Below, piece by piece: positions 3,261-37,965 of a stretch of DNA of 64,000 nt. Positions within the stretch are counted from its first letter, which is position 1; each line of letters starts with the position of its first letter. The notes beneath the pieces are model-generated. The model had not been told where the DNA came from and did no database searches. It worked only from the letters and a program-made list of their open reading frames with translations. The DNA lies in contig JANQFH010000008.1 of the NCBI GenBank assembly GCA_028277945.1, forward strand, positions 128,742 through 192,741, given 5' to 3'. The position numbers and the translations under genes were made by a program. Source of the stretch: Oligoflexia bacterium (GTDB taxonomy: Bacteria > Bdellovibrionota_G > JANQFH01).

Positions 3261-3375
3261 AACTTCCTGTATTCTCTTGGTTGTTTCTAACATCAGCTTG
3301 ATTGCAAGCCGCATACCAGGGTACAGTTGAATATAATCAATAATATTAGACTATTAGATTAATTTTTAAAGAGAT

Positions 3376-6300: not shown

Positions 6301-6477
6301 GGTTTAGCTACTCTCCTCAAAAACGGTGAGTTTAAGGCTTTGAAAGGTGCCACCAACGTCACCGACGCTATGGTTGCCGAATCCTTGCAAGTCCTTTGTG
6401 CCGCAACAGGGCGTAGTCGATCTCATCTAGCTTCTCTTACCAGTCGGGCCAGCGTTGTTCCCATTCGTCCACGCTAG
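3376..6477 (+). CDS. Large exported alpha-helical/coiled-coil protein (1033 aa by track; likely true start ATG 3505 giving signal peptide MILNSYIRRWYRVLLCIGLLAVAPPTQQ). C-terminal ~135 aa domain shared with the giant protein 14031-23738
   Basis: Long ORF. N-terminal hydrophobic signal-like segment. A/E/L/R-rich helical composition. C-terminus VTYHEVLRQR..LEDKTVLEDLTNLLALFLSTAQGRPL..AEAGRRV..IRPR aligns with the C-terminus of the 3235-aa protein. Confidence 0.7.
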   Translation: MLKNGAALDPLRHPSPFSRWLTQRVFDDRSAIAPFFSEWSINIMILNSYIRRWYRVLLCIGLLAVAPPTQQTQAQTTDSSTSSPIERPKPNNDEAMAALDEVIALYVSSLRARELGSLYMVWSRRQGVADATGNPEAKGLAALAGMMHGRAQIFAQVIAMLWVAPQEPLNRDFINARLEYWLKLSGMPVEEEFDPIVHLLQMVLSSTFGELAIEFNTYQKLVESLNGMVQQALSQTIHLQILEEERKLKADAKLIVAAEERVNKAAVELEKAANAVEKGPTAQAEQVLGRAVGALGKAMSAIMQVVEFRHTATALPDEMHPDYADSVAAVERAVAPLLAMHTQLETAQSDARSLHGLAKDLKQSKENIRDDNEAQISQAGLRGHGTAARTMQASLSEGAANLKAYIEALGEEGGADRELLKARLRASNDPTVQFAIENMRSVADHLAAAVEVFNPDADVAVEETEGGDRKIQLTGGTVSLEDLDRGRTHFLEVNKLSVAMEALAQERIESGTVDPRIQELRAALESEGDVQSLEQIKADFEALFSIVRDLAIELAARTGEDSAVGAFRMTGETVETVYSHIDAPQYSAYRSMEFPLFRLHLTMGPMNSVRRALEIRRELRRLEAFLADEEATLQPLFAAIEKARQNMESVMSQSPRGDVLATPVSWFSPERCIQQMGDTHGLFVAGLVAGVMDPTSSTASRGEWLPTQMQGFLYSIGNFLLEVAEQIPEAENIFFSAASEQLAGDSQTSLAQLFWRHLLFLVRQRGENETAVLARIAHYGGEPEPLATDELAATYHADLTIAPYYMELVGYPADDPVQMAALPLEAYESALELWGLLLPIPETEASQAFFQLRDPLRAWVEEQFAMERGRAEARESSETPSATPRVNRESLREAVLNLVTYHEVLRQRNNEGSLEDKTVLEDLTNLLALFLSTAQGRPLAIMHSEVLQSEIADETDARLAQAEAGRRVMATFERTGLATLLKNGEFKALKGATNVTDAMVAESLQVLCAATGRSRSHLASLTSRASVVPIRPR

Positions 6478-6731
6478 TGACCGATTGAGATATCTCGGGT
6501 CGATAGTCAGGAGTGCGGCTATTACCATTATATATATAGAATAGAGGCATGTTGGCGTTTACACATAGGGGCGGATGTTTATCAAATCCGTTACGCGGTT
6601 TGTCAAGAGCGGTAGCCGTAGGGAATGATTGAAATAATTGAGAAAAAATAAGTGCAACGATTTGTTGACGGCATGCCTCTGTCGTGGAATAACTCCTTGG
6701 CCCAAACACCGTTTTAAGAAAGGAAGATGAG

Positions 6732-7382
6732 ATGGATCGACTGACAAAGACCCTGAAGCCTGGCTCGTGGCTTCTGATGCAGCTGCTGGTTTTGGCCTGC
6801 TGTCTGTTGCTGGTATCAGCAGGTGCTAAACAGCTGCAAGCCGAGGATGCCGCTCAAATCAAGGTAGCGCAAGGTGAGCATCCAGGTACAGAGCACCCAG
6901 GCAGCGATGATGTGAAAGAAGACGAAGAAGACGAAGAGAAGAAGAAAAAGAAGAAAAAGAAAAAGCGTGAGCATCCAGGAGAGAAGAAGAAAGAACACCC
7001 GGGCAGCACTGCGACCAATTTTACCGCCAAAGATATCAAAACTGCGATGATGAACCACATTAAGGCCAAGACCAAAAACACCAATGGTGTCTTCCGCATC
7101 AAAGATGAGAAGGCCAACAAGACGCTCTTTCTCGAGTTTGTAAAGATCCACGATCCTGTGCGCAAGATTGCCGGTAAGGGTTACTTTGCCTGTACCGACT
7201 TTCATCCTGTGGGCGAAGATGCCACCAAGCTATACGATCTCGACTTTTGGCTGAACCCCAAAGACGGTCGTTTGCAGGTCACCAAGACCGCGATCCACAA
7301 GCATCCACACAGACAGGCATCCAAGTGGGTCAAGAAGGCGCGTTATACCTTCATTGATGATAAACCCGTAGAAATTAACTAA
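6732..7382 (+). CDS. Secreted low-complexity protein with four EHPG repeats and a poly-Lys/Glu tract. Stop overlaps the start of the transglutaminase-like gene by 2 nt (operon)
   Basis: Signal peptide LLMQLLVLACCLLLVSAGA. Repeat region GEHPGTEHPGSDDVKEDEEDEEKKKKKKKKKREHPGEKKKEHPGS. AGGAAG RBS upstream of ATG. Confidence 0.6.
   Translation: MDRLTKTLKPGSWLLMQLLVLACCLLLVSAGAKQLQAEDAAQIKVAQGEHPGTEHPGSDDVKEDEEDEEKKKKKKKKKREHPGEKKKEHPGSTATNFTAKDIKTAMMNHIKAKTKNTNGVFRIKDEKANKTLFLEFVKIHDPVRKIAGKGYFACTDFHPVGEDATKLYDLDFWLNPKDGRLQVTKTAIHKHPHRQASKWVKKARYTFIDDKPVEIN
6919..6975 (+). repeat. Simple trinucleotide (GAA/AAG)n tract encoding the E/K run of the EHPG protein
   Basis: gaagaagacgaagaagacgaagagaagaagaaaaagaagaaaaagaaaaagcgtgag read directly. 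Confidence 0.7.
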
Positions 7383-7384
7383 GC

Positions 7385-8443
7385 GTGATGCAGCCAAGAG
7401 AACTACTTAACATCAGTCACCGCCGGCAAGGTTTTATCCTTGCCGGCGTTCTCTTTGTCTCTCTGATTTTGCTGCCGGATCGCACAGCGGCAAAAATAGA
7501 GCCACTAAAGTACGAAGGTTCAGGCCGCAAGGTTGATTTTACCTACTTAGTGACCATCGAGTTGGATAAGGCCGCTAAGGCTCCTGTGGACATCTTTCTG
7601 CCGCTGGCATCCAGCAATGAAAAGCAAGAGGTGCTGCGACAGACCGTGCGGGCTAATGGCATTCCCGGAATCATCAAAACCGATGCTAAATATGGCAACA
7701 GGTTTTGGCACGGTCGTTTAGAAAAACCAGGAGGCACCTCCTCAATCCAGATCTCGGTGGACTACACGGTTAAACGCGATGTCTTTCGCCATCCACTGCA
7801 ACTCTCGGGCGTTAGTGCTAAAGTCTATAGTCGTGGCGAGTTAGCGCAGTGGCAGGCTTTTCTGGAACCCAACCGACTTACTCCCACCTCTGGGCCATTT
7901 ATTGATCGAGTTCGTAAAGATCTACCCCAGGGAGGCAAAACGCCTTTGGAGCGGGCGCGTATTATCTACGACTTTGTCATCGACAACATGACCTACAAAA
8001 AGACCGGCAAAGGCTGGGGTAATGGCTCTACTGAGTGGGCCTGTAGCAAAAAGTATGGCAACTGCACCGACTTTCACGCGCTGTTTATCTCCTTAGCGCG
8101 CGCTGAAGGCATTCCTGCGCGGTTTGGCATTGGCTTTCCCATACCCGAAGACAAGGCAGCAGGAAAGATTTCTGGCTACCACTGTTGGGTGGACTTCTAT
8201 CTTCCCAGTGCTGGCTGGTTTCCTATTGATGCGTCTGAGGCGTGGAAGAATCCAAAGCGGCGTGATCTCTACTTTGGTACGCAGCCGGCAGATCGAGTTG
8301 CCTTTACTGTGGGGCGGGACTTACGACTAGGCGATGCCCACAAGAGTGAGCCGCTAAACTACTTCATCTATCCGCACTTAGAGGTTGGTGGCAAACCGTA
8401 CGATCGTTGGCAAGCCTCCTTTGCCTTCAAGGATAAGACGTAG
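7385..8443 (+). CDS. Transglutaminase-like superfamily (Cys-His-Asp papain-like) protein with N-terminal signal/TM anchor
   Basis: Motifs KKYGNCTDFHALF (catalytic Cys context), GYHCWVDFYLP (His) and FPIDASE (Asp) typical of transglutaminase-like cysteine proteases. N-terminal hydrophobic segment FILAGVLFVSLILL. Confidence 0.8.
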   Translation: MMQPRELLNISHRRQGFILAGVLFVSLILLPDRTAAKIEPLKYEGSGRKVDFTYLVTIELDKAAKAPVDIFLPLASSNEKQEVLRQTVRANGIPGIIKTDAKYGNRFWHGRLEKPGGTSSIQISVDYTVKRDVFRHPLQLSGVSAKVYSRGELAQWQAFLEPNRLTPTSGPFIDRVRKDLPQGGKTPLERARIIYDFVIDNMTYKKTGKGWGNGSTEWACSKKYGNCTDFHALFISLARAEGIPARFGIGFPIPEDKAAGKISGYHCWVDFYLPSAGWFPIDASEAWKNPKRRDLYFGTQPADRVAFTVGRDLRLGDAHKSEPLNYFIYPHLEVGGKPYDRWQASFAFKDKT

Positions 8444-8459
8444 CAGAATTAGGTGGAAG

Positions 8460-11400
8460 TTATAACTCGCCAGCAAGCACTTGTGCGGCCGCGAGCATGG
8501 CAGCCTGAGTGTTAAAGGCAAAGCCATCCACTTTCGAGGCCGTAAAGTTACTACTGTTTTTAAAGTGGTCGACTAAGGCCTTGGCCTGATCGATTGTGCT
8601 CAGCGCTGGGTTATAAACCCCGTAGAGCTGGGCGGCACGATCAAGATAGAAATTCACTTTGGCAGGATTGGCGCGCAGGCCAAAGGCAGCAACAGAGCCT
8701 GTCTCCTCGTTTTCAGTGATGCTCGAGTGTACGGGCGGTTGTGCTGCCGCGGGGACGTAGCTGCCCTGGCAAGCTGCAGGAACAGAGCCTGTTCCCCCAT
8801 AAACCTCAAAGTAGTGAAAGTTGTCATACTGTTTGTTATCGGAAAAACCAAGTATGTAGTAGATCGAATTCTTAAAGGGGTCCCAACCTGAAGTCAGCAT
8901 GCCACGTGTTGCTTCGGCTACGACGTTAGCAGCGGCCGCCTCTTTGGCCGGATCTTTGAATTCCCAGAAGGACTGCCATAGTGCTGTGGTGGCAAGGTGA
9001 ACAAAGGCCTCTTCAAAGGCCTGGGTGTTCCACATCTTGGATAGATCAATACCATCAAAGGATTTGTTGATGGTGCCGCTGTTGATATAGCCACTACAGA
9101 CAGAGCGTCCCTTGTCTAACAACTCTGAGTAAACCTCAAACCACTGTTTATTGTCACTACGCCACTCGGGTGTGGCGAGACGATAGGCAGCGGCAGCGAC
9201 CTGCAGCATCCACGCATGCCCACGTCCATGACCAAAACCTTGGTTTGTATGATTGCCAGGTGCGGCGGTAATCGTTCCACCCTGTTGGATGGAGGCTAAT
9301 TCCACAGCGGGGTTGGAGAACTGCATCAGCTGCGATACCCGTCTCAATGCCGGCATCATAGAGACACCCTGGTTGTCCAAAGTCGAGGTGGTGTAGGGTG
9401 TGTAGTTGTAAGTACCAATCCTTAGGGCACCATCGAGGCCGATAATCAACTTGGCTAGCGAGTCGTTGGCGAGCCAGGCTAGGGGTAGGTATAGGCGGCT
9501 GTACCGCACAAAGTGCGCATCGTCCGTGGGATAATAGAGAGCGCCACAGCCGTAACAGGAGTCATGGCCGATCATCTTGACCTGGTATCCTGGAGCTTGT
9601 TGGCCAATAGACTTATAGGTTGGATGGCCAGTTTGGCCTAAGAGCGCTGCTACATAACCAAAGGGATCGTCCTTCGGCCCCGTTGAATAACCAGAAGCGG
9701 GAATGGCAGGCGAGGGCCAGTTCTGATCCCAAGGTCCATTCCAGAAATTATAATAGGTCTGAAAAATGGCCCCGCTTGCTGCTTGGATATACTGAAACTC
9801 TTTAGGATCAAAGGGGTCGCCATTGGCAAGAAAGAGCGCCTGGGGTTGTCGATCGGTATGCATAAAGAACTGGAGTTTCAGCCAATTGATACCGTCACTC
9901 CATGCACTCTGTGCTGTACCCGTACCCTCGAGCATGTGGATGTTCTTGCCCCCTGTGGTACCACCACCCATTCCACCAAGCGGATGTGCGGTTCCCATGG
10001 ATTTGTTGTGGACATCCAATGCGGTATCGATGCTGCCGCTCTCGCGTACCTGCTTGAGGGCGTTGAAGTCGCTGGAGAGTTTGTTGCGAATACCCTGGGC
10101 GCCAATAAAATCAATATTGGGTAGTAGTTGGTTTTGTGGAAAGTAACGCGCCGTCAGCGGATTCCACCAGGAGAAGTAGCGATCTCCCTCTGAGTTGGTG
10201 CCCGGTTGTACAAAGGCCAACCCCTCTTCATCCAAGAGCTCTTTAGCTCGGGCGATAGCTGCAGGGTTGTCAGGAACCAAGGCTAAGCGTTCCAATCTCA
10301 TGGCGCGTGGTCCAAAGAGATGCAGTTCATTCGCGGTATCAACGGTAAAAAACTGCGAATCGCTACTGTTGATCTCGCGAAATAAAAAGTGCAAATCAGT
10401 GTTGGTGGGGCAGGGCAGAGAGAAACTCGCATCACAGTAGTCTTGCCAAAAGGGATGCGGTGCCCATTGGACTAAGCGCCAACCTAGCGGCACCTCAATG
10501 CCGAGCGCCTTAAAATAGGTGTAGCCGTTGGGCTTGATGTCAGAGCCGTGATCGGCAAGCATGGTAAGGCCGCCAGGCAGGTTCTTACCCACCGGACCGT
10601 TGTTAAGCATCAAATCGAGAAAAATCACCTCCTGGTCACTCATGGTCGAGATAGCGGCGTGCACCCCAACAAGATGATCATAGTCTCCAGAGCCCGATGC
10701 CGTAGTGGGTTCCATGGTACCGTAAGTGAGCGCGGTTGATTTAACCGGTCCAAAGCGTTCCGCCTTGGTGCTTCCGGTTCCGGCAAAAAGATCGAGCAGG
10801 TGTATACGATCTTGATGGTCGGCGGCAACGATGTTCAGCGCTGCCCCACTATCCAGCAAACCGCGTATACTGCCAGGCAGATTGTTCGGTTGTTGCAAAA
10901 GCTCCCTGGCACTCGCTCCTGCAGGAGGTTTTGGATAGGTCGCCTTTCCTATGAAAACACCATACTCCACCATGCCCTCGGCATCGGCGGCCATGCTGTT
11001 AGGGACCTCAGCCATCACCTCAACCACATCTGCGCCTGCGGCAGGATTGGCAAAGCGGCTGACGATTTCGGTTTGTAGCGGTATGGAATTGCCTTCGCCA
11101 TCTTTAGTGGCAAAAGGCGTTTCAATGGCGTTTTCGAGATTGTTGCTGGGAAAGACTCCAGGTATCAAGGGCAGGGTGGCGCGCAAGATAAAGCTGGTTG
11201 CCGAGCTGTCGGGCTTCTTGAGTTTGAGTTTGGCTATATCGAGACCAGCAGGAAGATCTATGGAGAAGTCACCGCCAGAAGAGCCGCTATCGTTTTCAGA
11301 ACCACCACCTCCGCCACCATCTGAAGAGGCTGCCGTGCCCAGATCTTGGTTGTCGACCTCCTCGCCACTGTTGCCATTGAGGACGCTACCAAAACATCCC

Positions 11401-11471
11401 GAGAGGCTAAGCAAGGCCAGGGCTAAGAGAAGCGTATATATATAATGTTTACGCCGTTGAAGCAGGCGCAT
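8460..11471 (-). CDS. Large lipoprotein (about 1000 aa from ATG 11471; track gives 11522), unknown function, Gly-rich linker after lipobox. Paralog of 61027-63780
   Basis: Lipobox LLLALALLSLSGCFGS. GGGGGGSENDSGSSGG linker. Strong RBS AAAGGGGGGA 7 nt before ATG at 11471. Collinear similarity to the 63780 gene (FILRATLPL/FILHGTLPL, LFSWWNPLTARY/LFSWWHKASARF, RLDLRINNGP/FLDLMLNNGP). Confidence 0.7.
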   Translation of the reverse strand: MRLLQRRKHYIYTLLLALALLSLSGCFGSVLNGNSGEEVDNQDLGTAASSDGGGGGGSENDSGSSGGDFSIDLPAGLDIAKLKLKKPDSSATSFILRATLPLIPGVFPSNNLENAIETPFATKDGEGNSIPLQTEIVSRFANPAAGADVVEVMAEVPNSMAADAEGMVEYGVFIGKATYPKPPAGASARELLQQPNNLPGSIRGLLDSGAALNIVAADHQDRIHLLDLFAGTGSTKAERFGPVKSTALTYGTMEPTTASGSGDYDHLVGVHAAISTMSDQEVIFLDLMLNNGPVGKNLPGGLTMLADHGSDIKPNGYTYFKALGIEVPLGWRLVQWAPHPFWQDYCDASFSLPCPTNTDLHFLFREINSSDSQFFTVDTANELHLFGPRAMRLERLALVPDNPAAIARAKELLDEEGLAFVQPGTNSEGDRYFSWWNPLTARYFPQNQLLPNIDFIGAQGIRNKLSSDFNALKQVRESGSIDTALDVHNKSMGTAHPLGGMGGGTTGGKNIHMLEGTGTAQSAWSDGINWLKLQFFMHTDRQPQALFLANGDPFDPKEFQYIQAASGAIFQTYYNFWNGPWDQNWPSPAIPASGYSTGPKDDPFGYVAALLGQTGHPTYKSIGQQAPGYQVKMIGHDSCYGCGALYYPTDDAHFVRYSRLYLPLAWLANDSLAKLIIGLDGALRIGTYNYTPYTTSTLDNQGVSMMPALRRVSQLMQFSNPAVELASIQQGGTITAAPGNHTNQGFGHGRGHAWMLQVAAAAYRLATPEWRSDNKQWFEVYSELLDKGRSVCSGYINSGTINKSFDGIDLSKMWNTQAFEEAFVHLATTALWQSFWEFKDPAKEAAAANVVAEATRGMLTSGWDPFKNSIYYILGFSDNKQYDNFHYFEVYGGTGSVPAACQGSYVPAAAQPPVHSSITENEETGSVAAFGLRANPAKVNFYLDRAAQLYGVYNPALSTIDQAKALVDHFKNSSNFTASKVDGFAFNTQAAMLAAAQVLAGEL

Positions 11472-11567
11472 GTGAATCCCCCCTTTACGCTGCCTATAAA
11501 GCAAAGCTGGTGCCAAAAGCAATTTTAGTAATATTAGATAGTTAGAACTTTAGAGGCGAAGCCCTCT

Positions 11568-11614
11568 ATTCGAAAGTCAAACAGTGAGTATTTTCTGGCG
11601 TAGTGCTTTCGAAT
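11568..11614. promoter_or_regulatory. 9-10 bp inverted repeat (ATTCGAAAGT ... GCTTTCGAAT) spaced about 29 bp apart, in the 212-bp divergent promoter region between the 8460-11471 and 11735-14002 genes. Candidate operator
   Basis: Read directly from sequence; lies in the only sizeable intergenic region between two divergently transcribed lipoprotein genes. Confidence 0.3.
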
Positions 11615-11734
11615 TGAGAGAGAACTTTTGTTTTCACATGAAAATTCAACTCTCTGTTTATACGTGGGTTTTTACCTAGGCAGATGGCCCAGGATTTGCA
11701 TTCCAAGCGTGAGGAAGGGAGTTAACCCGGCTAC

Positions 11735-14002
11735 ATGAAGAAGCTTTTTACCAGCAGCAAAAATGGGTGGGCCGGCAAGCTCGTTACCCTGGTCTTATCT
11801 GTGGTCCTACTGTTTGTGCTGGCAAGCTGTAACACCTCCATCCATGGAACTGATAGCAGTGCCGACAGCACCGACGAAAATGCTGCCGGCTCCCTTAGTG
11901 ACGAGCTCGGTGACGACAGCGGTGGCGACAGCGGTGGCGGTGTTGATCTCATTAACGCCATACTGAACCCAGCAGACTACAATGCCTTAGAATTGATTGA
12001 GTATGATGCCTACGTTTATCCAGGCGAGCACGGCAAGATCGTTGCCGCAGCTACGGGCATCGACCTTGAGGGTTTGTCCTTGACTGTCTTCTTTGTGGAT
12101 GCCGCAGCCATTGACCCGACAAATCCGCTCGAGATGTTTCCGCAGGCTTATGCCAAAGATGATCTAGTTGAAAATCCCGGTAGTGAGCTTGGGGCTCCCC
12201 CAGGAGCGGGGTCCTACAATTTCATGGCGCCGCTCACCACGCCAGTTCCAACCAAATTTATTGTCTTTGCTGGGCTGAAAGTTGACAACAAGGCCTACGT
12301 CACTCAACAGCCCTTTGAAATCAACGTGATTGCGGCGTCCTCTAACCCCACCATAAAACCCAAGGCTGGTTTTGATGGTATCAACGGTTTTGATGGACCC
12401 ACGCCGCCACCCCCGCCGTTTGGTTCGGGTCCAGGTGCAAATGCCAAGGCGATTGCACGGTTTTTCTCGGTAAACAAGCGTACCCTGTATGAAGAGATCG
12501 CCATTGGCGTGATTGCTTACCACATCAACGGTATCGATCGTGTTGAGTTTGCCGTTGAGGGCGGTAAGTGGGAGACGGTAACACAACCCTCGACCAACCC
12601 AGACACTGGGATTAAAAACGAATACTGGGTCAAAGTGAATCCGGACGATTTTCCAGATGGACCTCCTGATGGTGTGTCGCTTGCAACCAAAGAGGGCTAT
12701 GAGATTCGTGCCATTGCTTATCCAAAGAACGCCGGTGAGCCGCGTCTGCTCTCACTCTACTTTAGTACCAATGCAAAAGGGACGCTACCCGAGACCAAGG
12801 TTTGGGTCGATGTGAATGGTGACGACAGCTCTGGCGATGGCACGGCTAGCAAACCAGTGAGAACCATTGCCCGTGCAGCGCAGCTAGCGCAAGAGACACA
12901 AGGCAGCGTTGATGGGGCAACTGCTTATCTCAATCCAGGAACCTACGACTTTGGTCCACCCAAAAGTGGCGTCGCTCCCATTAATAAACGTCGCTGGTTT
13001 ACCATTAGCGCCGCCCCAGGGGTTGACCGCTCACAAGCGATCTTGCAGCAGGGCAGCGATGATACCGGTCTCAAAATCAGGTTGGTGAAGCTAGAAAATC
13101 TAACCTTAACCTCGCCGCTAAAAACAAAAAAACAGGCCTCACCCGCACCGCTCAAAGAGTCCTCTATTTATTTAGAAGGCGTGCGTGCGAAGGGTCCAGA
13201 CCAACAAAAAGAGGCTTCGTTTTGGTTTGGTTCAGACTGGACCGGTCGTTTCGCTGTCAACACAGAGACGAGCGATGCCAAGTACTGCATCGGCGCCACT
13301 GGCGCCACCCTGATTGCTTTTTGCTACTGTCATGAAATTGGCAGCGATGTTTTTAACAACGTCGGGACCTTAGTCAACAACCTAGTCATCAATATCCAAA
13401 AACTCGTTGGAGCTGTACCACCCTGGCATCCCGATTCGATTCAGTATGGTATCAACTCATTTGGGGATGCCAATGCGATTGCACAGGGGAACACAGTTTT
13501 AAATGGCGATGATGCGCAGGGACCCTTTGTTAAGCTCAGCGATTCGAAGAATCCGCTTGAAAATATTGTGTATGCTAACAACGTCTTTGAAACAGGTGTC
13601 TCCGGCAAGGTTGAGCCGGCGAAATTGAACCACATACTGTTTATCAACAATAGCATTGATAAGAGCTCCCTCATTTGGCGTAATCCAAAGGAGGACTCGG
13701 AAAACGTCATGTACCATGGTAATATTTCAAATTTCAAGGTGTATCCTGCCACGGTTAGCGTTGATGAAGCGTGGTTTAAATGGAACCACTTTTTAGGCTC
13801 TGAAACCTACGGTGATTACTTTACCACGGGTGATCCGGGCTACATCGATCCTGCCAACGATAACTACGGCCTTCTGCCCACCTCACCCAACAAAGACGTG
13901 AACATCAGCCCGCTCTTTCCGATTCTCGTACCCATGGATGGCCTTGGCGTTGATCGTGCCACCACCTCAGGCCCCACTTCCAGCAAGGGTGCCCGCGAGT
14001 AA
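11735..14002 (+). CDS. Lipoprotein with probable right-handed parallel beta-helix (pectate-lyase fold) domain
   Basis: Lipobox VLLFVLASCNTS. Motif VNGDDSSGDGTASKPVRTIARAAQLAQETQGSVDGATAYLNPGTYDF resembles the N-terminal cap/first turns of beta-helix proteins. Repetitive N/G/V-rich C-terminal part. Confidence 0.5.
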   Translation: MKKLFTSSKNGWAGKLVTLVLSVVLLFVLASCNTSIHGTDSSADSTDENAAGSLSDELGDDSGGDSGGGVDLINAILNPADYNALELIEYDAYVYPGEHGKIVAAATGIDLEGLSLTVFFVDAAAIDPTNPLEMFPQAYAKDDLVENPGSELGAPPGAGSYNFMAPLTTPVPTKFIVFAGLKVDNKAYVTQQPFEINVIAASSNPTIKPKAGFDGINGFDGPTPPPPPFGSGPGANAKAIARFFSVNKRTLYEEIAIGVIAYHINGIDRVEFAVEGGKWETVTQPSTNPDTGIKNEYWVKVNPDDFPDGPPDGVSLATKEGYEIRAIAYPKNAGEPRLLSLYFSTNAKGTLPETKVWVDVNGDDSSGDGTASKPVRTIARAAQLAQETQGSVDGATAYLNPGTYDFGPPKSGVAPINKRRWFTISAAPGVDRSQAILQQGSDDTGLKIRLVKLENLTLTSPLKTKKQASPAPLKESSIYLEGVRAKGPDQQKEASFWFGSDWTGRFAVNTETSDAKYCIGATGATLIAFCYCHEIGSDVFNNVGTLVNNLVINIQKLVGAVPPWHPDSIQYGINSFGDANAIAQGNTVLNGDDAQGPFVKLSDSKNPLENIVYANNVFETGVSGKVEPAKLNHILFINNSIDKSSLIWRNPKEDSENVMYHGNISNFKVYPATVSVDEAWFKWNHFLGSETYGDYFTTGDPGYIDPANDNYGLLPTSPNKDVNISPLFPILVPMDGLGVDRATTSGPTSSKGARE

Positions 14003-14030
14003 GGGTATTTCGTCCAAGATATCAATTGGT

Positions 14031-17000
14031 TTAGCGGACCCGAATAGAAACAGCTTGAGCGCGTTGCACGATGGAAGTTAAAGCACTTGGATTGAACGTG
14101 GTTAATTTACCAACGACTTGCATGGCTGGACCGATCTGATTATCGCGAATCCCTGCTGCAGGGAGGTGAGCAGTAAATTGACCACTGCTGAGAAGCTGCT
14201 GCAGTCGGGTTTGGGAGTAGTCTCGTGCTATCTGCCGTCCCGCCTCTGCGCGGCCAAGCCTCCCTTCTAGCGGTTCTGGTTCCTCGTCTAGGGGATGAGC
14301 GTACTGCATTACCAAAGGACGTCCTTGATCTGTTGAAAAGAAGAGAGCAAGTAAACGGGTGAGATCTCTCAACAGAGCTGCATCTTCTAGAGTTCCATCT
14401 GCCTTGCGTTGCCATAAGACTTTATGGTAGGTGACCAAAATTGCCGTTGCCTCTTCAACAGCTTGTTGATTGGCGCGTATTTGTTGGATCCTTGCCTGTA
14501 GTTGCTGCGCATGCCTGAGAGCAGACGTTCTCGGGTTCAAGCGGGGATTTCGATCGCTTCGAAAGTGATCAACAATCTGCCTTGCCAGCTGCTCGAGCCA
14601 CAGTAGTTCCGGCAACTCGATAGTGTCGACCGGTTGCAATGACTCGCCTCCTCTTTGTTGGCTTTGATAAAATTCTCCTAGTTGATCTAGTACGAACCCA
14701 TGGACGTCTCTGCTGTCTTGGCCGTGGTTCCACAACTGCAAGAATTCAGCAACAGTGTCGGCGTCAAATAGGTCCACATGGTTGGCTACCAGGTAATAGG
14801 TAAAGAGGCTGCTAACCTGCACTTCTGAAATAGCGTGTTTAAGGCCGTGTTGGAACAGAGAAAAGCTACCTCCTGTCGACGGGTCGTCAAAATGTATCAT
14901 GGCATAGAGATCGCTAAGCGCCCCAGCACGGCTGCGGGCATCCGGTGCCTCCAGCGCAACGAGAAAGATGGCATCGAGGATTTCCGCCACCGTTGACCAT
15001 TCCGAATAGGAACGCAACTTCATGGCAATGGCACTGTAAGCATTACCGGGGTTTATCGTCGTGTTTGGCGTTGCGGCTCGTTGGGCGCTGTGTCGTTCAT
15101 AGACGCCGCTGAGAACACGCATACCAATCTCACGCTGCTGCTCTAAGGGGGAGTGGCGGGCGAGCAGTCGTGCGGCACTGATTGCCGCTAGCGGCGGTTC
15201 GTCGGCACCTTGGGACAAATCAGTCCAATGGAGAAGAGCCGCAGTGAGCTGTGACCATGCACTGTCGCTATCATCCGTACCGAGCGAAAAAATCAGCGTC
15301 TCCAGAGCTAAAGCTGTTAGACGAGAATCGCCTGATTGCCGGACGAAGTTGGCAAGTGGGTTACGCCCGTGTTGTGCCAGCTCCCGGAGGTGCCTGCTCG
15401 CGCTGTCTCGATATTCAACATCTGGATCACCCCAGGCATGCTTTAAGTATGTCTGCAAATAATCCGACTGAGCCTCTCCAGCATCGGGAGGGTTCACAAA
15501 AATCTTATCAGGAAGGGAGACGAACACATCACAACGTCTTCGTGACGCGTCCCAGGCAGCGCTCCGTTGTGTGGGAGTCACATGTTTGCTATAGGGAGGT
15601 ACCGTGGTAATTCCATATCGCAGCCATCCTATATCTCTTTTGGTTGGCGGTGCTCGCAGTCCAGTGGTATGACTACCTAAAGGTAATTGGAGTTGGCTAC
15701 CCAGTCGTGTCCTTGCCTCAGCATTGACGCTCTCTAGCACTTGCACCGCCTCCTGCTGGTTTGCCTCACCTGGTGGACGGCCGGCAAAGAAGGTAGTGAT
15801 GTGATAGGCAGCCAATTTGGCGGTGTCACTCAGCGAAGCAAACAGGCGTGCTGCTAAACCTTCCGTGACAAACAGCGGTGTTGCCTGCGTGCGCAGTAGC
15901 TCCAGGTAGCTCGGCTGTTCGGTTGGCGAGCTTTGGCAGCGTTGGACAATCTGCTGCAATGCGAGCAACCAATGGGTGATTTCCGGCCTAAGACTACTGT
16001 AACGAACGTCATCAGCGGCAATGGATGCGAGCAGATCTACGTGTAAATTTTCTCTGTCTATTCTATCTAGCTCGGCAGTTGCCGATTGTCTGGCTTCAGT
16101 ATCACCCGGCGCAAGTGCCAAACCTTGTAGTACTAACCAGATGCGCATAGCACTGCCATAGTCTCCACGATCATAGCTTGCTTGCATGGCTTCATAGCCG
16201 ACGCGCTCTGTAGCTAAGAGAGAGGCCAGTCCATTAGTAACGCGTGCGCGTATGTTGCTAAGATAAATTTGAAAGAGAGAATCCATGGTGTCATCAGCAA
16301 AGGTTCCTCTGGCTGCGATCCACTCTCCGGGTTCAAAACCCAGCTCTTTGAGCCACTCCCTAGAGAAGGCGAGGTTCCAGAGCAGTTGTAACGCGTTGGG
16401 GGAATCCGCGGATTGCCGTTCTATAATGGTAATAAGGCTCTCCGTGACGGTCGCATAGGCCATCTGCACGGATTCGCAGCCATTCAGTTCCCAAAAGAAC
16501 AGGGCGCGGGTTATTTCGAGCCGTTCTATGGCCCAGTCATACGCCGGATCGGCCACACGTTGAGCTAGAGTCAAGGCAAGCTGTCTATAGGATGCAACCT
16601 GCGGGTGGTTGCTTAATTTAAGCAGCGCTTGCATGGCATCGTCGGTACGTAACGACCGTAACGCCCCTTGGCGATGTGCGCTATTGGTGTCGTGGGTTGC
16701 TGTCTCCAAAGTCTGCCAAAGCCAATCATCGGGAGTCTTGGCATTACGCTCACTTTCCTGTTGACGGTTACCACCACCACCCCACGGTAGAATAGTGTGG
16801 CCACCGCGGCTAGGATGGCGCGGCGGATCCAAGTTGGCACGCAGCCCAGGATCATGCCCGGTTGGCCGCATACCGACACGCTCCATGGCGGCTTGAATGT
16901 CTGTTTCAAAGGCTACCAACCCTCTGATGTTTTCTGTGAACGGCGGCGGGCCATCTGGCAGTTGCACGCATCTATTAGCAGTGTCCAGCAGTTGTCGGGC

Positions 17001-20000
17001 GAGCCGACGTATTAACGGGCTAGCTGAGTTGGCGTGGCGATCCAGAGAACCACTGTTGGCAAGCGCTTGCACCATCAAACTAGCGGGACTGACTATGGCT
17101 TGCGGCTCAAGGCGTTCGTCACGCAAGCTGCGATCCAACGCTAAGAGAGCGAGGGCACGATCCCAAACCGACACATCTTCGCCACGCAGATGATGAGCTG
17201 CTTGACGGCTTTCCACCATCTCTTCTGCTTGGGCCTGAGACACCACGCTACCCACGTTCACGGCGCGCTCGCAGAGATAGTGCAGCTGTTGCGCAGCACG
17301 CATACGAACATCCTCAGGCAGGTCAGGATCGACAATGGCTAGGTTGAGAAGCATCATCCAACGCAACCAGTCTTCATGGGCGTGCGGCTCCTGCCGCTCT
17401 CGAGTTTCTAGATCGGTTAATATCCTATCGTCTAGAATCAGCAGCACCACATTGACGCCCAATGTAGCGTAAGCCAGACGCTGCAACCCATCTTGATTTC
17501 CAGGTCTTGCTGCCATGTGTTCAGAAGGTGTTAACTTATGATTCACTAGGGGGAGCTCCGTGGTCTCTTCCCGCGGGGCTAATGGTGATGTTGATCTAGC
17601 CTGTTCATCCCCGCTCATAGCCTGAAGCAGGCGTTGAGCCTCCATGAGCATTGGGGACAGATTAACCTCGCCTCCCCCATCTGCCAGTGCAGCATGGCCA
17701 CTTCTACGCAGGATCCTTACTAACAGCGACTGTAATTCTTCAATGCAAAAAACAACTGATTCTAAATACTCTTTAGGTTCTATGCCTTGAGCGTCTTTAC
17801 GGACTACGCGCATGGTTGGGGTCATAGATTCGAGTTGCATCCAAGCACGTAGGAAGACCATGCTGTTGTTGGCGCGTACAAATAGCGCTTCACGTGTAGG
17901 GTCCTGCAAACGACCAGCGGTTGTAAAAAGAATATCAATGAGTTCTAGGTCAGACATCAATTTCATGGCGATTTCTCTTAGTGATATTGAATGTTGGTTG
18001 GGTGGTTCTCCAGTAGTTAAAGCTTCCGCGAGTACAGCAAGCATACGACTGCCCTCTGGAAACGAGAGTGCCATTAGCTCCGCGTGGAGAGCAGGATCTG
18101 AGGTTCCTGCTCTGGCATCTGTTTGGGGTGGTTCCAGTTCATCCAATACATCAGCAAGAAATGCACGAAAACCCTCACCGTCGCGCCAGGTAGCAAGGGC
18201 CTCCTCTAAACGGCTGGCTGCTTCAGCATGCTGTCCAGACCCAGCAATTGCCGCCCGGAAATTTGCCACTGCCTCAAGCAACCTCACGGTTGTTTCCCGA
18301 TCGTATGGAGAGGTGAGCATGCCCGCAAACCGTTCTCCACGGAAAAATCCGGCATAGATCGGTAATAACTCTGCGTGCAGTTCAACATCGTAAAACCAGG
18401 CGAGGTTGAGGATATCTAGGGCAAGTTGCACGTAATCTCCTGGTGCCTCTGCCTTGACCAAAGAGCCGATCCGGGCAAAACTGCCGGTTCGCGAGAGACG
18501 TGCCAAAGTTGCCTCACGCACAGAGAGTCCACTGCCTCGCACTAGGGCATCATCACCATTCGATAGGGCTGCGTGAATAAGCGTCAGCACGGCTTCTGCT
18601 AATTTAGGATTTTCCTCTAGCAGCGTAGTTTCTATCGCTAGCAAAGGACCAGGGGAGAGCAAATCAACCAACTCCTCGGCCACAACCTGCCCTCCATGGA
18701 TCCAAGTGGTTAAGAGCTCAACCATTGCAGTTGCAATTTCTAAATCCTCTGCCGACGGTTGTTGTGTTGCTGTAGGTGCAGCCAAGCATCTCTGTAAAAA
18801 TTGGCGCATAGGCCAGAGTGCTGCGTTTGCGCCTTCAGCGTAACGCCAGGTCCTATCTTCGGAAAAATAGAATGCACGCATCGCCTCCAAGCGCTGCGCT
18901 GTTGGGAGGCTTTCATCTAACATTGTTGCAAACCAGAGAGCAGTCTGCTGTTGCGGATGTGCCGTACCGGGATCTGGATTAAGACGGTGTTTGGTCAGGT
19001 AGCGAATCTCTGTTGGCGGGAAATAGTTGTCGAGAAAAGTTTGACAGTTAGTTCTCACCGCGCCATCGTAGATCTCTACACCGTCCAGAGCCAACCTGAG
19101 AGCGAGCAGGCGTAATAATCGATTCTTGTCAGGCGTATTCCAGGTTGTAAACCGGCCGCCGCTACGGATCGACTCCGAAAAAATGCCATGCGCTTGTTCG
19201 GTAGCTACATGTGAAACATCTGGGTTCAAGAGCGCGTAGCGTAGTACTAAGAGAAATCCAACGAGCTCTCTGGTCTCGCCTGCCGGCGCTTTTGCACTAC
19301 CGCTGTAGCTTTCGGTAAGGCGGTAACTTGTAGTCAGCACTCTTTCTACTACCAATCCGAACTCTTGACGATCAAGTGCTCCTGAGTCTGGTTTAAGAAA
19401 AACGCTCTCCAATGGAATGTTGCGTTCAAAAGCTTCAAAGATAGTCTGCAAGCCTACACGGTAAGAGAAGCTGCCAGACTCGCTCATCGCTAAGCTTATG
19501 AGCAGCTCATAAAAAAGCTCTGGGTTCTCCTGCCAAGCGTCTTCGCCACGGCCAAGGAGCTGTTGTGCTTCTACGACCAAATTGTGCAAGCTTGGCTTTT
19601 GGGACTCCGCACCATTACGAATCTGGTTTTGGCTTACGGCAGCGGCTTCCCGCTGAAACCAAATCATGTCGGTTATGTCATGACCGGTATCACCGCGCGC
19701 TTCAGCAACGGCTAAAAACATGGTGCGGGCGCGTTGCTGTTGCCGCGCATCCACACCCACAACGTTGCCCCTGTAGATGGCGATTAAGCAATGTCTCGCG
19801 GCATCGGCTAGCTCTCCATCAGAGCTTTGGGCGAGGTGTTCTAAGAGTGAGGGGCCGCTCGGTTCAGCATCGGTATAAGGCGCTAACAGCCTCGAGGCTA
19901 GTCCGTGGATACTTGTTACTGACACATCTGTACTGGGCCCATCCGTTTCAGACGTAGCCCTCTCTACCGCAGGTGAGTAGGACCAGAGAATCGCCTCAAG

Positions 20001-23000
20001 GACGAGGCGCAGCAGTTGCGGATCGTCGTAGCGTCGCAACACTTCGGTCCATAACGCCGGCTCCGCTTTCTGGTAGGTGTCAGCAAGATGGCGTACTAAG
20101 TTGCTTTCACTGCTGTTGTGGTGGTGTGCTAGCAGTTGCAAACAGCGACGCAGCGCCGTCTCATGCCGGTCTCGATAGGCCTCTTCAAAGAGAGCGAAGA
20201 GATCGGTGACAATGGTCTCAGCTGCTATAGGGGGCTCAGCATCCTGACCACCGACAGCCAAGACCTCAACAACGGTTAGAACTGCCAAGCGGTAGCGCCA
20301 CAACAGTGCGTGGGGTTGTTGTAATGCCTCTCTAAAGGTGACTTGTCGTTGAAAGGGTAGGGCGGCCACGAGATCCGTCCAGCGATCATAATTGTCAGGC
20401 TGTGTGCGCAAGCTCTGCCAAAGATCGTGTAGCTGCGTAGGTGATGGGTGCAGCCCTTGTAACCTCCTATCAACGTTTGCTACATCATCATCTGGACTAT
20501 CCGCATGAAAGGCCTCAGCTCGAGCGTTCAGCTCTTGCAGATTGCGGTAACGCTCTCTAAGCGAGCGGCTCTCATCCAGCACCCCTTCCCAGAGAGTTGC
20601 TGCATCAACACTCGCCCTTGCTCTTCCGCTCCCCCAAAAGTCTAACGCTCCTCTGCGTTGCTGGTTTGCGCCTACCGGGGTCAAACCCCGACGCTGACGT
20701 GGATCGGCTGGCGCTGGCTGCAAACCAAAGTCGTCCATCTGCTGGGCGACCGTAGCGTGCAGCTCAGCATGCGGATTTGCAGACCAGCCATTCGGCGGTG
20801 CAGACCAACGATGCACAGCGTGTAAAAGAATGGTGATGAGCTCACGAATGAGTGGATTTTCCGCATTAGAGTGGCGATTTAAGGTGCCTCTTCCTATGAG
20901 CTCAAAGACTAGTCTGGCTTGAGCTGTCAGCCGCGGATCACCTGGTGGCGAGTTACGAAAGCCCTCCACCAATCCCAACAGTGCCAAAGCTTGGTCCCAA
21001 GTGGACTCAGCCTCACCAATCTCAGTTAGAACACGCCGCATTGCGTGTGGGTCTCGAGCCTCAGGACCGTTCATCTGCGTGAGGTTCACCTGGCCGTTTC
21101 TGACCATGTCACAGGCGTGTTGCAGCAGAGCTGCGGCGGTTTCTCGTATAGGCGTCTCGGCTTCGCCCATCCCATTGAGAGTTACTGCTGCTGTTAGCCA
21201 ATCACCCGCAAGTATCGGAGTTCCATGGAGATGTGCCTCTAGCAGTCGCCTTATTGATGGCTGCTGCTCAAGCTGCAGCTGGAGAGTCTGAACCGTCCAG
21301 TTAAAAACATGTTCAGCACGGAAGTCGCTACCATCCGTTGCTGCGACAAACTCATCTACTCTTGCCAAAAAGTCCGTGGCAGACCATTGCGCCACCAGGG
21401 CACTGCGTACTGAGCGGGTACTATCGCCACTTGGCGTTTCCATAACAAGGCTAGCATCATGGTAGCGTCCTATAGTGTGAATAAGATCGAGCGCTGCATC
21501 GGCAGCCTCGAGATGACCACCCTGCACCGCGTGCGAGAATAGTCGCAAAATAGGTCCGGGGCTGACGATCTCAGTAACATGCTCTGGTGCATAAAATCCA
21601 TGTGCCGCCCAGCTACGTAACAAGTGTAATTGTTCTGTAGCCAGCGGCCAATGCATGGCCGCACGAGAGCCGCCACTCTCCAGCGCATCACAGCTGTCGG
21701 CAAGTTGGGCAATGAAGAGATCTCCGTAGTGCTGTACCAGATTGATGTAAGCAACAGCAATTTCCAGCTGTCTAAAATTGTAAGCTCCCTGAAGGGACCT
21801 CAATCTTCTTAGTGCTTCACGACGCTCGGCTACGGGAAGGATAGTATCAAGGGCCTGGCGTAACAGCTGTTCGGTCTCTGCAACCATCGGTCCCACACCG
21901 TCAACGTAGCTAAGATCCACTGGAGGTGTGTAGCCACGCAGCAACGGTGCTCCTACTCTTTGCAACGGTTCAGAGCCACCTCCACTAGCATCACTCGCTG
22001 CCACAGCTTGTTCTAAGCCATGGTGGGTGAGCATACGTACTAGGGGATGGTTATGTTGCAAGAGTGTTGCGATTCTGCCTTCACTTAAGGCAGAGTCATA
22101 GGACCGCTGCATCTCATTAGCACTGTTTGGATCAAGAACGTCGTCAACCAAACCACAACGATAAAACAAAAGTGCCGTAGCAAGATCTTGTACACTCTCT
22201 CCTTCAAGCAAAGCGCTCCGAAATCGACCATCCGTCACATAAGCGTTGGCATTAAACTTTCCCTCCACCGTAGCCGCCACCACCTCAAGACGACCAAGCT
22301 CGTCTGTGTTGAGCAACCGCTGTACCACGTCCAAAGCGAGCTCAAAGTCCGGTGCTGCGGAATCGGTAGCTGCAAGCTCCATAAGCAGCTTGCCATACTG
22401 GTCCAGTGCATACGGATCTTGTCCTCCGTGCATGGCATGAATCTCCGTAGCGTTCTGGCGCAGCGGGCTCGCCTCACTCCATAGGCTAAGCTCTGTTGCT
22501 GGCTCCGACTGTGGAGGAGCTCCCTCCACTGCGTAGATGGCTGCTTGCGCCCGGGCGCGCATGTTGAGGTCTCCATGTCTTAGAAGATTTTCTAGAAACC
22601 CACGAAAAGGCGTATCGGGGTTAGAACTATAGCGTGCTGCATAGGCAGTTTGTAACCAACCGCTCCTCAGCAGAAAGTCTTGACGCTGGTCTGCTAGGTT
22701 AGCGATCTCCGGCGGCCCATGCCGTGTGCCTAATGCGCCTAAGCCGTACAGGGTCTGCAGCGCCATATCGGCCAACGGGGTGTCACGGGAGTGCTGCGCT
22801 ATTGCCACCAATTCCCCTTGTGGATATTTGCTAGTTGGCTCCAGGAGTGTTGCAGCAATATCGATAAAAGGCTGACGAACTTCAGCGGGATCTCTACTAT
22901 CAGAAGAATCTCTCCTAAATACCACCCGCGTCAGCGTGTCATCCCACATCGCCTCCTGGTACCAACACCAACGGAACAACCCCAGAAGCTCCTCGCGCAC

Positions 23001-37933: not shown

Positions 37934-37965
37934 CCCTAGAGATTTTCCAGAGCCGGAGGTAGCTT

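What the first reader, a model, noticed from the sequence alone, without database searches (positions are those of the whole stretch)
14031..14453. C-terminal ~135-aa domain shared, to the very last residues, between the 3235-aa giant protein and the 1033-aa protein at 3376-6477: candidate new C-terminal sorting/secretion domain
Seen directly. The last ~135 aa of the giant protein align collinearly, roughly 40-45% identical by eye, with the last ~135 aa of the 1033-aa protein encoded 7.5 kb away on the opposite strand (nt 6070-6477). Giant: ..ILVTYHKVLWQRKADGTLEDAALLRDLTRLLALFFSTDQGRPL..RAEAGRQI..LTSIVQRAQAVSIRVR. Other: ..LNLVTYHEVLRQRNNEGSLEDKTVLEDLTNLLALFLSTAQGRPL..QAEAGRRV..LASLTSRASVVPIRPR. 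Upstream of this domain the two proteins are unrelated in size and sequence, and both begin with Sec signal peptides. A conserved module at the extreme C-terminus of otherwise different exported proteins is the hallmark of sorting or secretion-recognition domains (T9SS CTD, PEP-CTERM and similar). This one is helical and non-hydrophobic, unlike the ones I know. It could instead be a shared anchoring or partner-binding domain.
Basis: seen in the sequence. Interest (0 to 1): 0.8.

Follow-up and report, generated by a model that had tools for sequence, protein, structure and literature searches.

The report
Shared C-terminal module, three clustered orphan proteins
Three large exported proteins of unknown function, encoded close together in one uncultured Bdellovibrio-like bacterium, end in the same ~145-residue helical domain; the domain is real, matches no known family and is found nowhere else, so it looks like a locus-private docking or assembly module rather than a general secretion signal.

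Summary
The last 149 residues of the 3235-aa protein (14031-23738, minus strand) and of the 3376-6477 ORF (likely a 990-aa product starting at 3505) are 42% identical (BLASTP E = 6e-28). Nothing else in the two proteins aligns.

An exhaustive HMMER scan of 1.84 billion representative proteins found only one further carrier, a 2425-aa protein. Its gene ends 4.5 kb left of the window on the same contig. All three genes therefore lie in one ~35.5-kb cluster of exported orphan proteins.

All three copies sit at the extreme C-terminus, and all three proteins have Sec-type signal peptides. The domain is predicted all-helical, with no transmembrane segment and no Pfam, NCBIfam, PDB or fold match.

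The similarity starts abruptly at the domain boundary. Synonymous sites are not saturated, and the similarity runs 12-19 nt past the stop codon. The 3' cassette is therefore younger than the gene bodies, spread by cassette duplication or gene conversion.

Most likely it is a cluster-specific docking or co-assembly module (confidence 0.42). A new sorting signal is not excluded (about 0.17), but only three clustered carriers exist, in one genome, and no machinery is recognisable. Function is untested. Interest is modest.

The parts
14031..14477 (-). C-terminal domain (CTD) of the 3235-aa protein, residues 3088-3235 plus the stop codon.
   Evidence: BLASTP 42% identity over 149 aa to the 990-aa protein, E = 6e-28. 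62% identity over 144 aa to the 2425-aa protein, E = 1e-45. AlphaFold model of the last 160 residues: six helices, pLDDT 67, pTM 0.67.
6028..6477 (+). CTD of the 990-aa protein, residues 842-990 of the product (885-1033 of the mechanical ORF), plus the stop codon.
   Evidence: 44% identity over 150 aa to the 2425-aa protein.
14031..23738 (-). Gene of the 3235-aa exported all-helical orphan protein. It holds two distantly related tandem modules (about residues 1-1040 and 1041-2320), a third unrelated segment, then the CTD.
   Evidence: ORF list. Module similarity E = 2e-12 and 4e-9. No Pfam, NCBIfam or PHROG match. No homologue other than itself. The identical gene is present in an independent Logan assembly.
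3505..6477 (+). Gene of the 990-aa exported helical orphan protein. The reading frame is open from the TTG at 3376.
   Evidence: Logan gene call of 990 aa and NCBI call of 978 aa. GGAG lies about 15 nt upstream of ATG 3505. No homologue other than itself.
23637..23738 (-). Predicted Sec signal peptide of the giant (34 residues, ...SPAAQA|QS).
   Evidence: Read from the sequence. It is the only hydrophobic 19-residue window in the protein. No signal-peptide predictor was available.
3505..3597 (+). Predicted Sec signal peptide of the 990-aa protein (31 residues, ...TQQTQA|QT).
   Evidence: Read from the sequence. No predictor was available.
14014..14030 (-). Short motif directly after the giant's stop codon (ACCAATTGATATCTTGG), shared with the other two CTD genes.
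   Evidence: The 17-19-nt version occurs only at the two CTD gene ends in the window. The pattern was derived post hoc.
6480..6498 (+). The same post-stop motif after the 990-aa gene (ACCGATTGAGATATCTCGG, containing the palindrome GAGATATCTC).
1..3314 (-). 5' part of the gene for a 1323-aa orphan membrane protein: N-terminal signal or anchor plus hydrophobic segments at residues 678-740. It is divergent from the 990-aa gene and is a cluster member. It is a candidate partner by inference only.
   Evidence: Frame open to the window edge. Full gene in L082:5839-9810. Hydropathy. No Pfam match.
6732..14002 (.). Cluster genes lying between two of the CTD genes: a 216-aa exported Lys-rich protein (6732-7382, +), a transglutaminase-like protein (7385-8443, +), a 1003-aa lipoprotein (8460-11471, -) and a 755-aa lipoprotein (11735-14002, +).
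   Evidence: Only Transglut_core is recognised (E = 5e-27).

Best explanation
The segment is an autonomous, all-helical, soluble C-terminal domain of about 142-148 residues. It has been copied, or kept similar by gene conversion, as a 3'-terminal DNA cassette on three large exported helical proteins encoded in one ~35.5-kb cluster of lineage-specific envelope genes. The most likely job is docking or co-assembly. After Sec export, the common domain would give three very different helical scaffold proteins the same interaction, either with one shared partner encoded in the cluster or with each other, so that they end up in the same envelope structure. Shown: the domain, its strict C-terminal position, its restriction to three clustered genes, the sharp boundary, and the cassette-like DNA history. 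Inferred: export, from signal peptides read by eye. Inferred: helical bundle fold, from a medium-confidence model. Inferred by elimination and analogy only: the docking function and any partner.
For: (1) Real module with sharp edges. Giant versus the 2425-aa protein: 62% amino-acid and 73% nucleotide identity over the last ~426 nt, starting abruptly at ...ATAILVTYH, with no DNA or protein similarity upstream. (2) Three carriers, always at the extreme C-terminus. All-vs-all BLASTP of 20 locus proteins shows the CTD is the only piece the three share. (3) All three genes lie in one cluster. The 2425-aa gene ends at L082:1962, which is 4.5 kb left of the window. L082 overlaps the window exactly: the first 1000 window bases are identical and the offset is confirmed at the 990-aa gene. 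(4) The cassette is younger than the gene bodies. dS is 0.64 for giant versus the 2425-aa protein, with dN/dS 0.46-0.62 across pairs. Identical codons at conserved residues exceed the saturation expectation (55 against 25.8, z = 7.2; z = 4.2 and 2.9 for the other pairs). Similarity continues 12-19 nt past the stop codons. (5) Properties of a soluble interaction domain. The model has six helices and one variable loop (residues 69-101 of the model, pLDDT below 50), with pTM 0.67. There is no hydrophobic segment. The CTD has near-neutral pI on acidic proteins. (6) The surrounding genes almost all carry signal peptides, lipoboxes or membrane segments and have no known families, as expected for parts of one envelope structure.
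Confidence: 0.42

Rival explanations
1. New C-terminal sorting or secretion signal. After Sec export to the periplasm, a dedicated lineage-specific machinery recognises the CTD and moves or anchors the proteins to the outer membrane or cell surface. The CTD may then be cleaved off.
For: All three copies are at the extreme C-terminus and are conserved to the last residue (V-[S/P]-I-R-x-R). All three proteins have N-terminal signal peptides. The domain is far better conserved than the rest of the proteins. The lineage is poorly sampled, with the best LeuRS match only 60% identical, so a private machinery could go unseen. A 1323-aa orphan membrane protein and a CPBP/Rce1-like intramembrane protease are encoded nearby.
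Against: Only three carriers exist among representatives of about 15 billion proteins, all in one gene cluster. Known sorting signals mark many dispersed substrates and are conserved across clades together with their machinery. No secretion-system, sortase-like or exosortase-like gene is recognisable in the window. The CPBP protease scores far below the cut-offs of all myxosortase-type models (30 bits against cut-offs of 75-435), and its known substrates carry a transmembrane helix, which this domain lacks. A 145-residue helical bundle is unlike any known sorting signal.
Confidence: 0.17
2. No special targeting role. The CTD is an ordinary structural end-piece of a fast-evolving paralogous family. 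Its similarity is maintained mainly by recent duplication or gene conversion among neighbouring genes, not by a shared function.
Against: The 990-aa protein shows no relation to the repeat modules, so the cassette has been attached to an unrelated body. dN/dS of 0.46-0.62 and 52 invariant columns among three copies indicate protein-level constraint. Conversion tracts that stop exactly at a domain boundary in three genes imply selection for the module as a unit.
Confidence: 0.2
3. C-terminal intramolecular chaperone or oligomerisation pro-domain. The CTD would nucleate folding or multimerisation of the long helical bodies and might then be removed, as in phage tailspike and endosialidase C-terminal chaperone domains.
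For: The domain is helical, about 150 aa, strictly C-terminal, and shared by otherwise unrelated large fibrous or repeat proteins. That is the same distribution logic as the phage chaperone domains (established knowledge of Peptidase_S74).
Against: There is no Pfam or PHROG match to Peptidase_S74 or any other family. There is no significant match in viral structure predictions; an 'endosialidase chaperone' entry appears only at E = 4.9, which is noise. No conserved Ser-Lys type cleavage motif is evident at the domain's N-terminal border in the three-sequence alignment.
Confidence: 0.1
4. The CTD is the active (enzymatic or effector) part, and the variable bodies are carriers.
For: Invariant polar residues include T-Y-H, Q-R, G-R-P and A-E-A-G-R.
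Against: There is no similarity to any enzyme family or fold. The domain is small and helical with a disordered central loop. Only three sequences are available, so invariance is weak evidence.
Confidence: 0.06

Closest known systems
Dockerin modules of cellulosomal enzymes (bind cohesins on a scaffoldin)
   Same: A small helical module at the C-terminus of otherwise unrelated Sec-exported proteins that gives them a common docking specificity. It spreads as a cassette, and carrier genes are often clustered. This is the closest analogy for how the CTD probably works.
   Different: There is no sequence match to Pfam Dockerin_1. The CTD is twice as long (about 145 aa against about 70 aa). It has no duplicated Ca-binding loop-helix motif. 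There are only three carriers, no cohesin-like partner has been identified, and the organism is diderm and Bdellovibrio-like, not a cellulolytic Firmicute.
Type IX secretion C-terminal domain (T9SS CTD, Por_Secre_tail)
   Same: It sits at the extreme C-terminus of Sec-exported, otherwise unrelated proteins and has domain-sized length.
   Different: The T9SS CTD is a beta-sandwich, restricted to Bacteroidota and relatives, and marks tens of dispersed substrates per genome alongside PorK/L/M/N/SprA genes. This domain is predicted all-helical, has three clustered carriers, gives no model hit, and no T9SS genes are seen in the window.
Short tripartite sorting signals: PEP-CTERM/exosortase, MYXO-CTERM and the other -CTERM classes cut by CPBP 'myxosortase'-type proteases, GlyGly-CTERM/rhombosortase, LPXTG/sortase
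   Same: C-terminal position on exported proteins, a basic last few residues (IRxR), and a CPBP-family protease gene about 8 kb from the giant's 5' end.
   Different: Those signals are 20-35 residues: a motif, then a transmembrane helix, then a basic tail. This domain has no hydrophobic helix and no shared signature motif. The CPBP protein is far below the family cut-offs.
C-terminal intramolecular chaperone domain of phage tailspikes and endosialidases (Peptidase_S74)
   Same: A helical C-terminal module of about 150 aa shared between otherwise unrelated large elongated proteins.
   Different: No sequence or fold match. Those domains are viral, trimerising and autocleaving, and none of that is testable here.

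Membership tests
T9SS C-terminal domain | Match to the Por_Secre_tail / TIGR04183-type profiles | tested here: not met
   No Pfam or NCBIfam hit for the full proteins. No such hit for the isolated CTDs at E <= 10.
T9SS C-terminal domain | Beta-sandwich fold | tested here: not met
   The AlphaFold model is six helices with no strands. Confidence is only medium (pLDDT 67).
T9SS C-terminal domain | Many dispersed substrates per genome plus T9SS machinery | tested here: not met
   Three carriers in total, in one cluster. No T9SS genes in the 64-kb window or the 6.5-kb extension. The rest of the genome was not available.
PEP-CTERM / MYXO-CTERM / GlyGly-CTERM / LPXTG tripartite sorting signals | Signature motif followed by a transmembrane helix and a basic tail within the last ~35 residues | tested here: not met
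   No 19-residue hydrophobic window outside the N-terminal signal peptide. No shared PEP, Cys, GG or LPXTG motif in the alignment. Only the basic tail (IRxR) is present.
PEP-CTERM / MYXO-CTERM / GlyGly-CTERM / LPXTG tripartite sorting signals | Cognate sorting enzyme (exosortase, myxosortase, rhombosortase or sortase) | tested here: inconclusive
   A CPBP/Rce1-like protein lies at 31995-32915 (Pfam E = 2e-13). It scores 30 bits or less against MrtS, MrtJ, Mrt_core and MrtC models whose cut-offs are 75-195, so it is a generic CPBP member.
Type I secretion C-terminal signal (RTX-type substrates) | No N-terminal Sec signal; RTX or other repeats; adjacent ABC transporter, MFP and TolC genes | tested here: not met
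   All three proteins have N-terminal signal-peptide-like sequences. There are no RTX hits. No ABC or MFP genes are seen in the window.
Autotransporter (T5SS) beta-domain | C-terminal beta-barrel with a terminal aromatic residue | tested here: not met
   No Pfam hit. The model is helical. The proteins end in Arg.
Dockerin | Match to Dockerin_1; duplicated Ca-binding segments | tested here: not met
   No Pfam hit at E <= 10. There is no internal duplication in the CTD alignment.
Dockerin | Binds a cohesin-type partner | not testable with these tools
   Needs a binding assay or complex prediction. The structure-prediction tool takes single chains only.
Cell-wall anchoring domains (SLH, PG_binding_1, LysM, OmpA-like) | Match to the family profiles | tested here: not met
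Peptidase_S74 C-terminal intramolecular chaperone domain | Profile match; autocleavage at a conserved Ser | tested here: not met
   No Pfam or PHROG hit. The BFVD match to an 'endosialidase chaperone' has E = 4.9. Cleavage is not testable here.

The most novel reading that the evidence does not exclude
The CTD is the recognition domain of a private, previously unseen export or surface-anchoring pathway of a deep-branching Bdellovibrio-like lineage. Its machinery would be encoded among the orphan membrane and lipoprotein genes of the same cluster, for example the 1323-aa membrane protein divergent from the 990-aa gene. The three giant helical proteins would be its only cargo. That would make it a self-contained 'cargo plus translocon' island with a helical, non-hydrophobic C-terminal signal unlike any known one.
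Probability: 0.12. Interest if true: 0.7.

Novelty: new variant of a known kind. Interest (0 to 1): 0.3.

Why it matters
If the docking reading is right, this is a small example of a widespread design, in a protein family with no known relatives: one common C-terminal handle on different exported proteins. It would also mark a ~35-kb island of orphan envelope proteins as one functional unit in an unstudied predatory-type lineage. The cassette-like DNA history shows that selection acts on the handle as a unit. That gives experimenters a defined 145-residue bait for finding the partner. As it stands the function is unknown, the organism is uncultured, and the family has three members, so the practical weight is limited.

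Tried and rejected
1. The word-indexed search with the two-CTD alignment returned nothing, not even the query proteins. That tool was therefore insensitive here, and the exhaustive HMMER scan superseded it.
2. P0004 and P0005 from that scan are spurious. They are repeat proteins whose 'GE[YF]G-H-PA-AVKENE' unit matches about 32 profile positions 4-7 times.
3. Scans of GTDB species genomes and JGI metagenomes with the three-CTD alignment found no relatives.
4. My own degenerate DNA pattern scan of the metagenomes is void. The spacer was one base too long, and the pattern does not even match the two window copies. It must not be counted as a negative result.
5. Full-length searches with the giant and the 978-aa protein found only themselves.
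6. tblastn against plasmids and phages found nothing.
8. The single-sequence AlphaFold model of the whole 990-aa protein has pLDDT 44. It is unusable beyond 'mostly helical'.
9. PG_binding_1-like idea for the last three helices: rejected.
10. The 183-aa protein two genes downstream of the 2425-aa gene as a free-standing CTD-like protein: collinear but not significant (6 bits; hhalign P = 0.06).
11. The two short proteins P0007 and P0008 in the 978-aa cluster are unrelated fragments and a clustering artefact.
12. Exact look-up of the 2425-aa protein failed. Its gene was found instead in the flank of the 990-aa gene.
13. A paper search for the run accession found nothing.
Full report
**Observation**

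The window holds a 3235-aa ORF on the minus strand (14031-23738) and a 1033-codon ORF on the plus strand (3376-6477). BLASTP of the two products gives a single significant alignment. Giant residues 3088-3235 align with residues 885-1033 of the smaller ORF at 63/149 identical (42%), with one single-residue gap and E = 6e-28. The alignment runs to the last residue of both proteins. Every other alignment has E >= 0.38.

tblastn and a profile of the domain against all six frames find exactly these two copies in the window.

The smaller gene most probably starts at ATG 3505. That gives a 990-aa product whose N-terminus, MILNSYIRRWYRVLLCIGLLAVAPPTQQTQA|QT, looks like a signal peptide. This is also the start called in an independent assembly. 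The giant starts MTAYQRNRDWPGRRRLLPLLALLAGLLFSPAAQA|QS. These signal peptides are read by eye, because no predictor was available.

**A third copy, and all three in one cluster**

An exhaustive HMMER search was run with the two-sequence profile against 1.84 billion representatives of about 15 billion proteins. It returned three real hits: the two query proteins and a 2425-aa protein, P0003, with the domain at residues 2267-2425, again the extreme C-terminus. Two weaker hits are repeat-protein artefacts.

P0003 also begins with a signal-peptide-like sequence ending SQA|QS. Its CTD is 62% identical to the giant's (E = 1e-45) and 44% identical to that of the 990-aa protein. Nothing else reaches significance.

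The cluster look-up places all three proteins on an NCBI contig of 514,312 bp. Fetching the flank of the 990-aa gene from an independent Logan assembly (L082) shows the 2425-aa gene ending at L082:1962. L082 overlaps the window exactly, with window coordinate = L082 - 6496; the first 1000 window bases are identical and the offset is confirmed at the 990-aa gene. The 2425-aa gene therefore ends 4.5 kb to the left of the window start.

The gene order is as follows (window coordinates where the gene lies inside the window):

| Gene product | Strand | Window coordinates | Note |
|---|---|---|---|
| 2425 aa | + | left of window | carries the CTD |
| 365 aa | + | left of window | |
| 183 aa | + | left of window | |
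| 713 aa | - | left of window | |
| 1323-aa membrane protein | - | 1-3314 (partial) | divergent from the 990-aa gene |
| 990 aa | + | 3505-6477 | carries the CTD |
| 216 aa | + | 6732-7382 | |
| transglutaminase-like | + | 7385-8443 | |
| 1003-aa lipoprotein | - | 8460-11471 | |
| 755-aa lipoprotein | + | 11735-14002 | |
| 3235-aa giant | - | 14031-23738 | carries the CTD |

The three carriers thus span about 35.5 kb.

**Distribution elsewhere**

No relatives were found anywhere else:
- The word-indexed search found none, but it also missed the queries themselves, so it was insensitive.
- GTDB species genomes gave none.
- JGI metagenomes gave none.
- Plasmids and phages gave none.
- The giant and the 978-aa form of the smaller protein have no detectable homologues other than themselves.

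One extra metagenome scan with my own DNA pattern is void because the spacer was one base too long.

The organism is poorly sampled. The window's leucyl-tRNA synthetase is at best 60% identical to any GTDB species representative, and the best matches are Bdellovibrionales and Pseudobdellovibrionaceae MAGs.

**What the domain is**

It has no Pfam, NCBIfam or PHROG match, even for the isolated CTDs at E <= 10. It has no relative among PDB sequences.

The domain has no hydrophobic segment. The only 19-residue hydrophobic window detected in any of the three proteins is the giant's signal peptide.

Fifty-two columns are invariant among the three copies. They include LVTYH-VL-QR, DLT-LLALF-ST--GRPL, AEAGR and the C-terminal V-[S/P]-I-R-x-R.

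**History of the cassette**

At the DNA level the giant and the 2425-aa gene are 73% identical over their last ~426 nt. The similarity begins abruptly at the codons for ...ATAILVTYH, and upstream nothing aligns as DNA or as protein.

Nei-Gojobori estimates for the CTD give dS = 0.64 and dN/dS = 0.46 for that pair. For the pairs with the 990-aa gene, dS is 1.0-1.1 and dN/dS is 0.5-0.6.

Identical codons at conserved residues exceed what saturated synonymous sites would give under the genes' own codon usage:

| Pair | Identical codons | Expected if saturated | z |
|---|---|---|---|
| giant vs 2425 aa | 55 | 25.8 | 7.2 |
| giant vs 990 aa | 32 | 17.7 | 4.2 |
| 990 aa vs 2425 aa | 27 | 17.0 | 2.9 |

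The first 12-19 nt after the three stop codons are also alike: ACCAATTGATATCTTGG, ACCGATTGAGATATCTCGG and ACTAATAGATA. The long form occurs nowhere else in the window, although the pattern was derived post hoc.

If bodies and CTDs had diverged together, bodies that no longer align would require absurd rates of amino-acid change at dS = 0.64. The inference is that the 3' cassette has its own, younger history. It was either attached to different bodies or is kept similar by gene conversion among neighbouring genes, with purifying selection on the protein.

**Context**

Almost every gene from the left end of L082 to about 32 kb in the window encodes a protein with a signal peptide, lipobox or membrane segment and no known family. 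The exceptions with family matches are a transglutaminase-like core, DUF6503, HEAT and TPR repeats, and a CPBP/Rce1-like intramembrane protease.

No secretion-system, sortase-like or exosortase-like gene is recognisable in the window. The CPBP protein scores far below the cut-offs of the myxosortase-type models. The substrates of those enzymes carry a C-terminal transmembrane helix, which this domain lacks.

**Mechanism**

The best-supported reading (confidence 0.42) is a cluster-private docking or co-assembly module. Three different exported helical scaffold proteins would carry the same soluble helical handle, so that they bind a common partner or each other in the cell envelope. The arguments for it are:
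- the domain's soluble helical nature;
- its selection as a unit with sharp borders;
- its restriction to three co-located genes among envelope genes;
- the absence of features of any known sorting signal.

This reading rests on elimination and analogy. No partner is known.

The rivals are:
- a new sorting or secretion signal (0.17);
- a structural end-piece kept similar mainly by local duplication and conversion, with no special role (0.20);
- a C-terminal intramolecular chaperone or oligomerisation pro-domain (0.10);
- an active effector domain (0.06).

The sorting reading keeps some weight. The position is strictly terminal, conservation extends to the last residue, and the lineage is barely sampled.

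**Comparison with known systems and verdict**

In logic the domain works most like a dockerin: a small helical C-terminal handle on unrelated exported proteins. It is not a member of the dockerin family or of any other family tested. The families tested were the T9SS CTD, the PEP-, MYXO- and GlyGly-CTERM classes, LPXTG, the T1SS signal, the autotransporter beta-domain, SLH and PG_binding domains, and Peptidase_S74. Each was tested on its defining features and not met (see the membership table).

The verdict is a genuine, previously undescribed domain family of three members. I file it as a new variant of a known kind, namely a shared C-terminal module on exported proteins. Interest is modest (0.3): the function is untested, the family is tiny, and the organism is uncultured. 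The cassette-like history and the well-defined 145-residue bait are the useful leads.

Noticed in passing
window 35129-45176: A tmRNA gene lies at 44823-45176 (minus strand; Rfam 187 bits; tag peptide GTDNYALAA), with smpB next to it at 45259-45735. The 21-nt 3' end of the tmRNA is repeated at 95% identity at 35129-35149. This brackets a ~9.7-kb low-GC island carrying a tyrosine integrase (43419-44579), a primase/DUF3987 protein (39937-42495), a SNase-like nuclease, Hypoth_Ymh and a ClpP-like SDH protease. It is a classic tmRNA-integrated mobile element. The independent Logan contig ends near this point.
   Followed up: partly
window 8460-11471 (-) and 61027-63813 (-): The 1003-aa lipoprotein inside the CTD cluster and a 928-aa lipoprotein 50 kb away are paralogues (29% identity over 836 aa, E = 5e-72). 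Both are orphans with no Pfam match.
   Followed up: no
window 14031-23738 (-); L082:1-1962 and P0003: Both giant proteins are built from internally duplicated ~1000-1300-aa modules. In the 2425-aa protein the two halves are 28% identical (E = 1e-52). In the 3235-aa protein, residues ~1-1040 relate to residues 1041-2320 (E = 2e-12 and 4e-9). Each module starts with a W-[EQ]-x-V-[IVL]-D-like motif.
   Followed up: partly
L082:3164-3715 (+), about 2.8-3.3 kb left of the window start: The 183-aa protein two genes downstream of the 2425-aa gene aligns collinearly with about 115 positions of the CTD profile, but only at 6 bits (hhalign P = 0.06). It may be a free-standing, very divergent CTD-like protein, or it may be noise.
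   Followed up: partly
window 14014-14030 (-), 6480-6498 (+); L082:1963-1973: Directly after the stop codons of all three CTD genes lies a similar short sequence containing small palindromes (CAATTG/GATATC in the giant's copy; GAGATATCTC in the 990-aa gene's copy). It could be the end of the duplicated cassette, a recombination site or a protein-binding site.
   Followed up: partly
window 1-3314 (-), continuing in L082:5839-9810: A 1323-aa orphan protein has an N-terminal signal or anchor and a hydrophobic block at residues 678-740. Its gene is transcribed divergently from the 990-aa CTD gene. It is the only clear integral membrane protein in the cluster core, and the mechanical ORF list misses it because it runs off the window edge.
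   Followed up: partly
window 6732-7382 (+): A 216-aa exported protein carries a run of nine lysines, an acidic DEEDEE stretch and repeated EHPG motifs. It lies immediately downstream of the 990-aa gene and upstream of the transglutaminase-like gene.
   Followed up: no
window 45716-47518 (-): A sigma-54 activator has an unusual N-terminus: an FHA domain followed by a weak GGDEF-like region, ahead of the AAA+ and Fis-type HTH domains.
   Followed up: no
cluster of P0002: The 90%-identity cluster of the 978-aa protein also contains two 47-53-aa ENA fragments (P0007, P0008) that have no similarity to it. This is a database clustering artefact, not evidence of the gene in other samples.
   Followed up: yes
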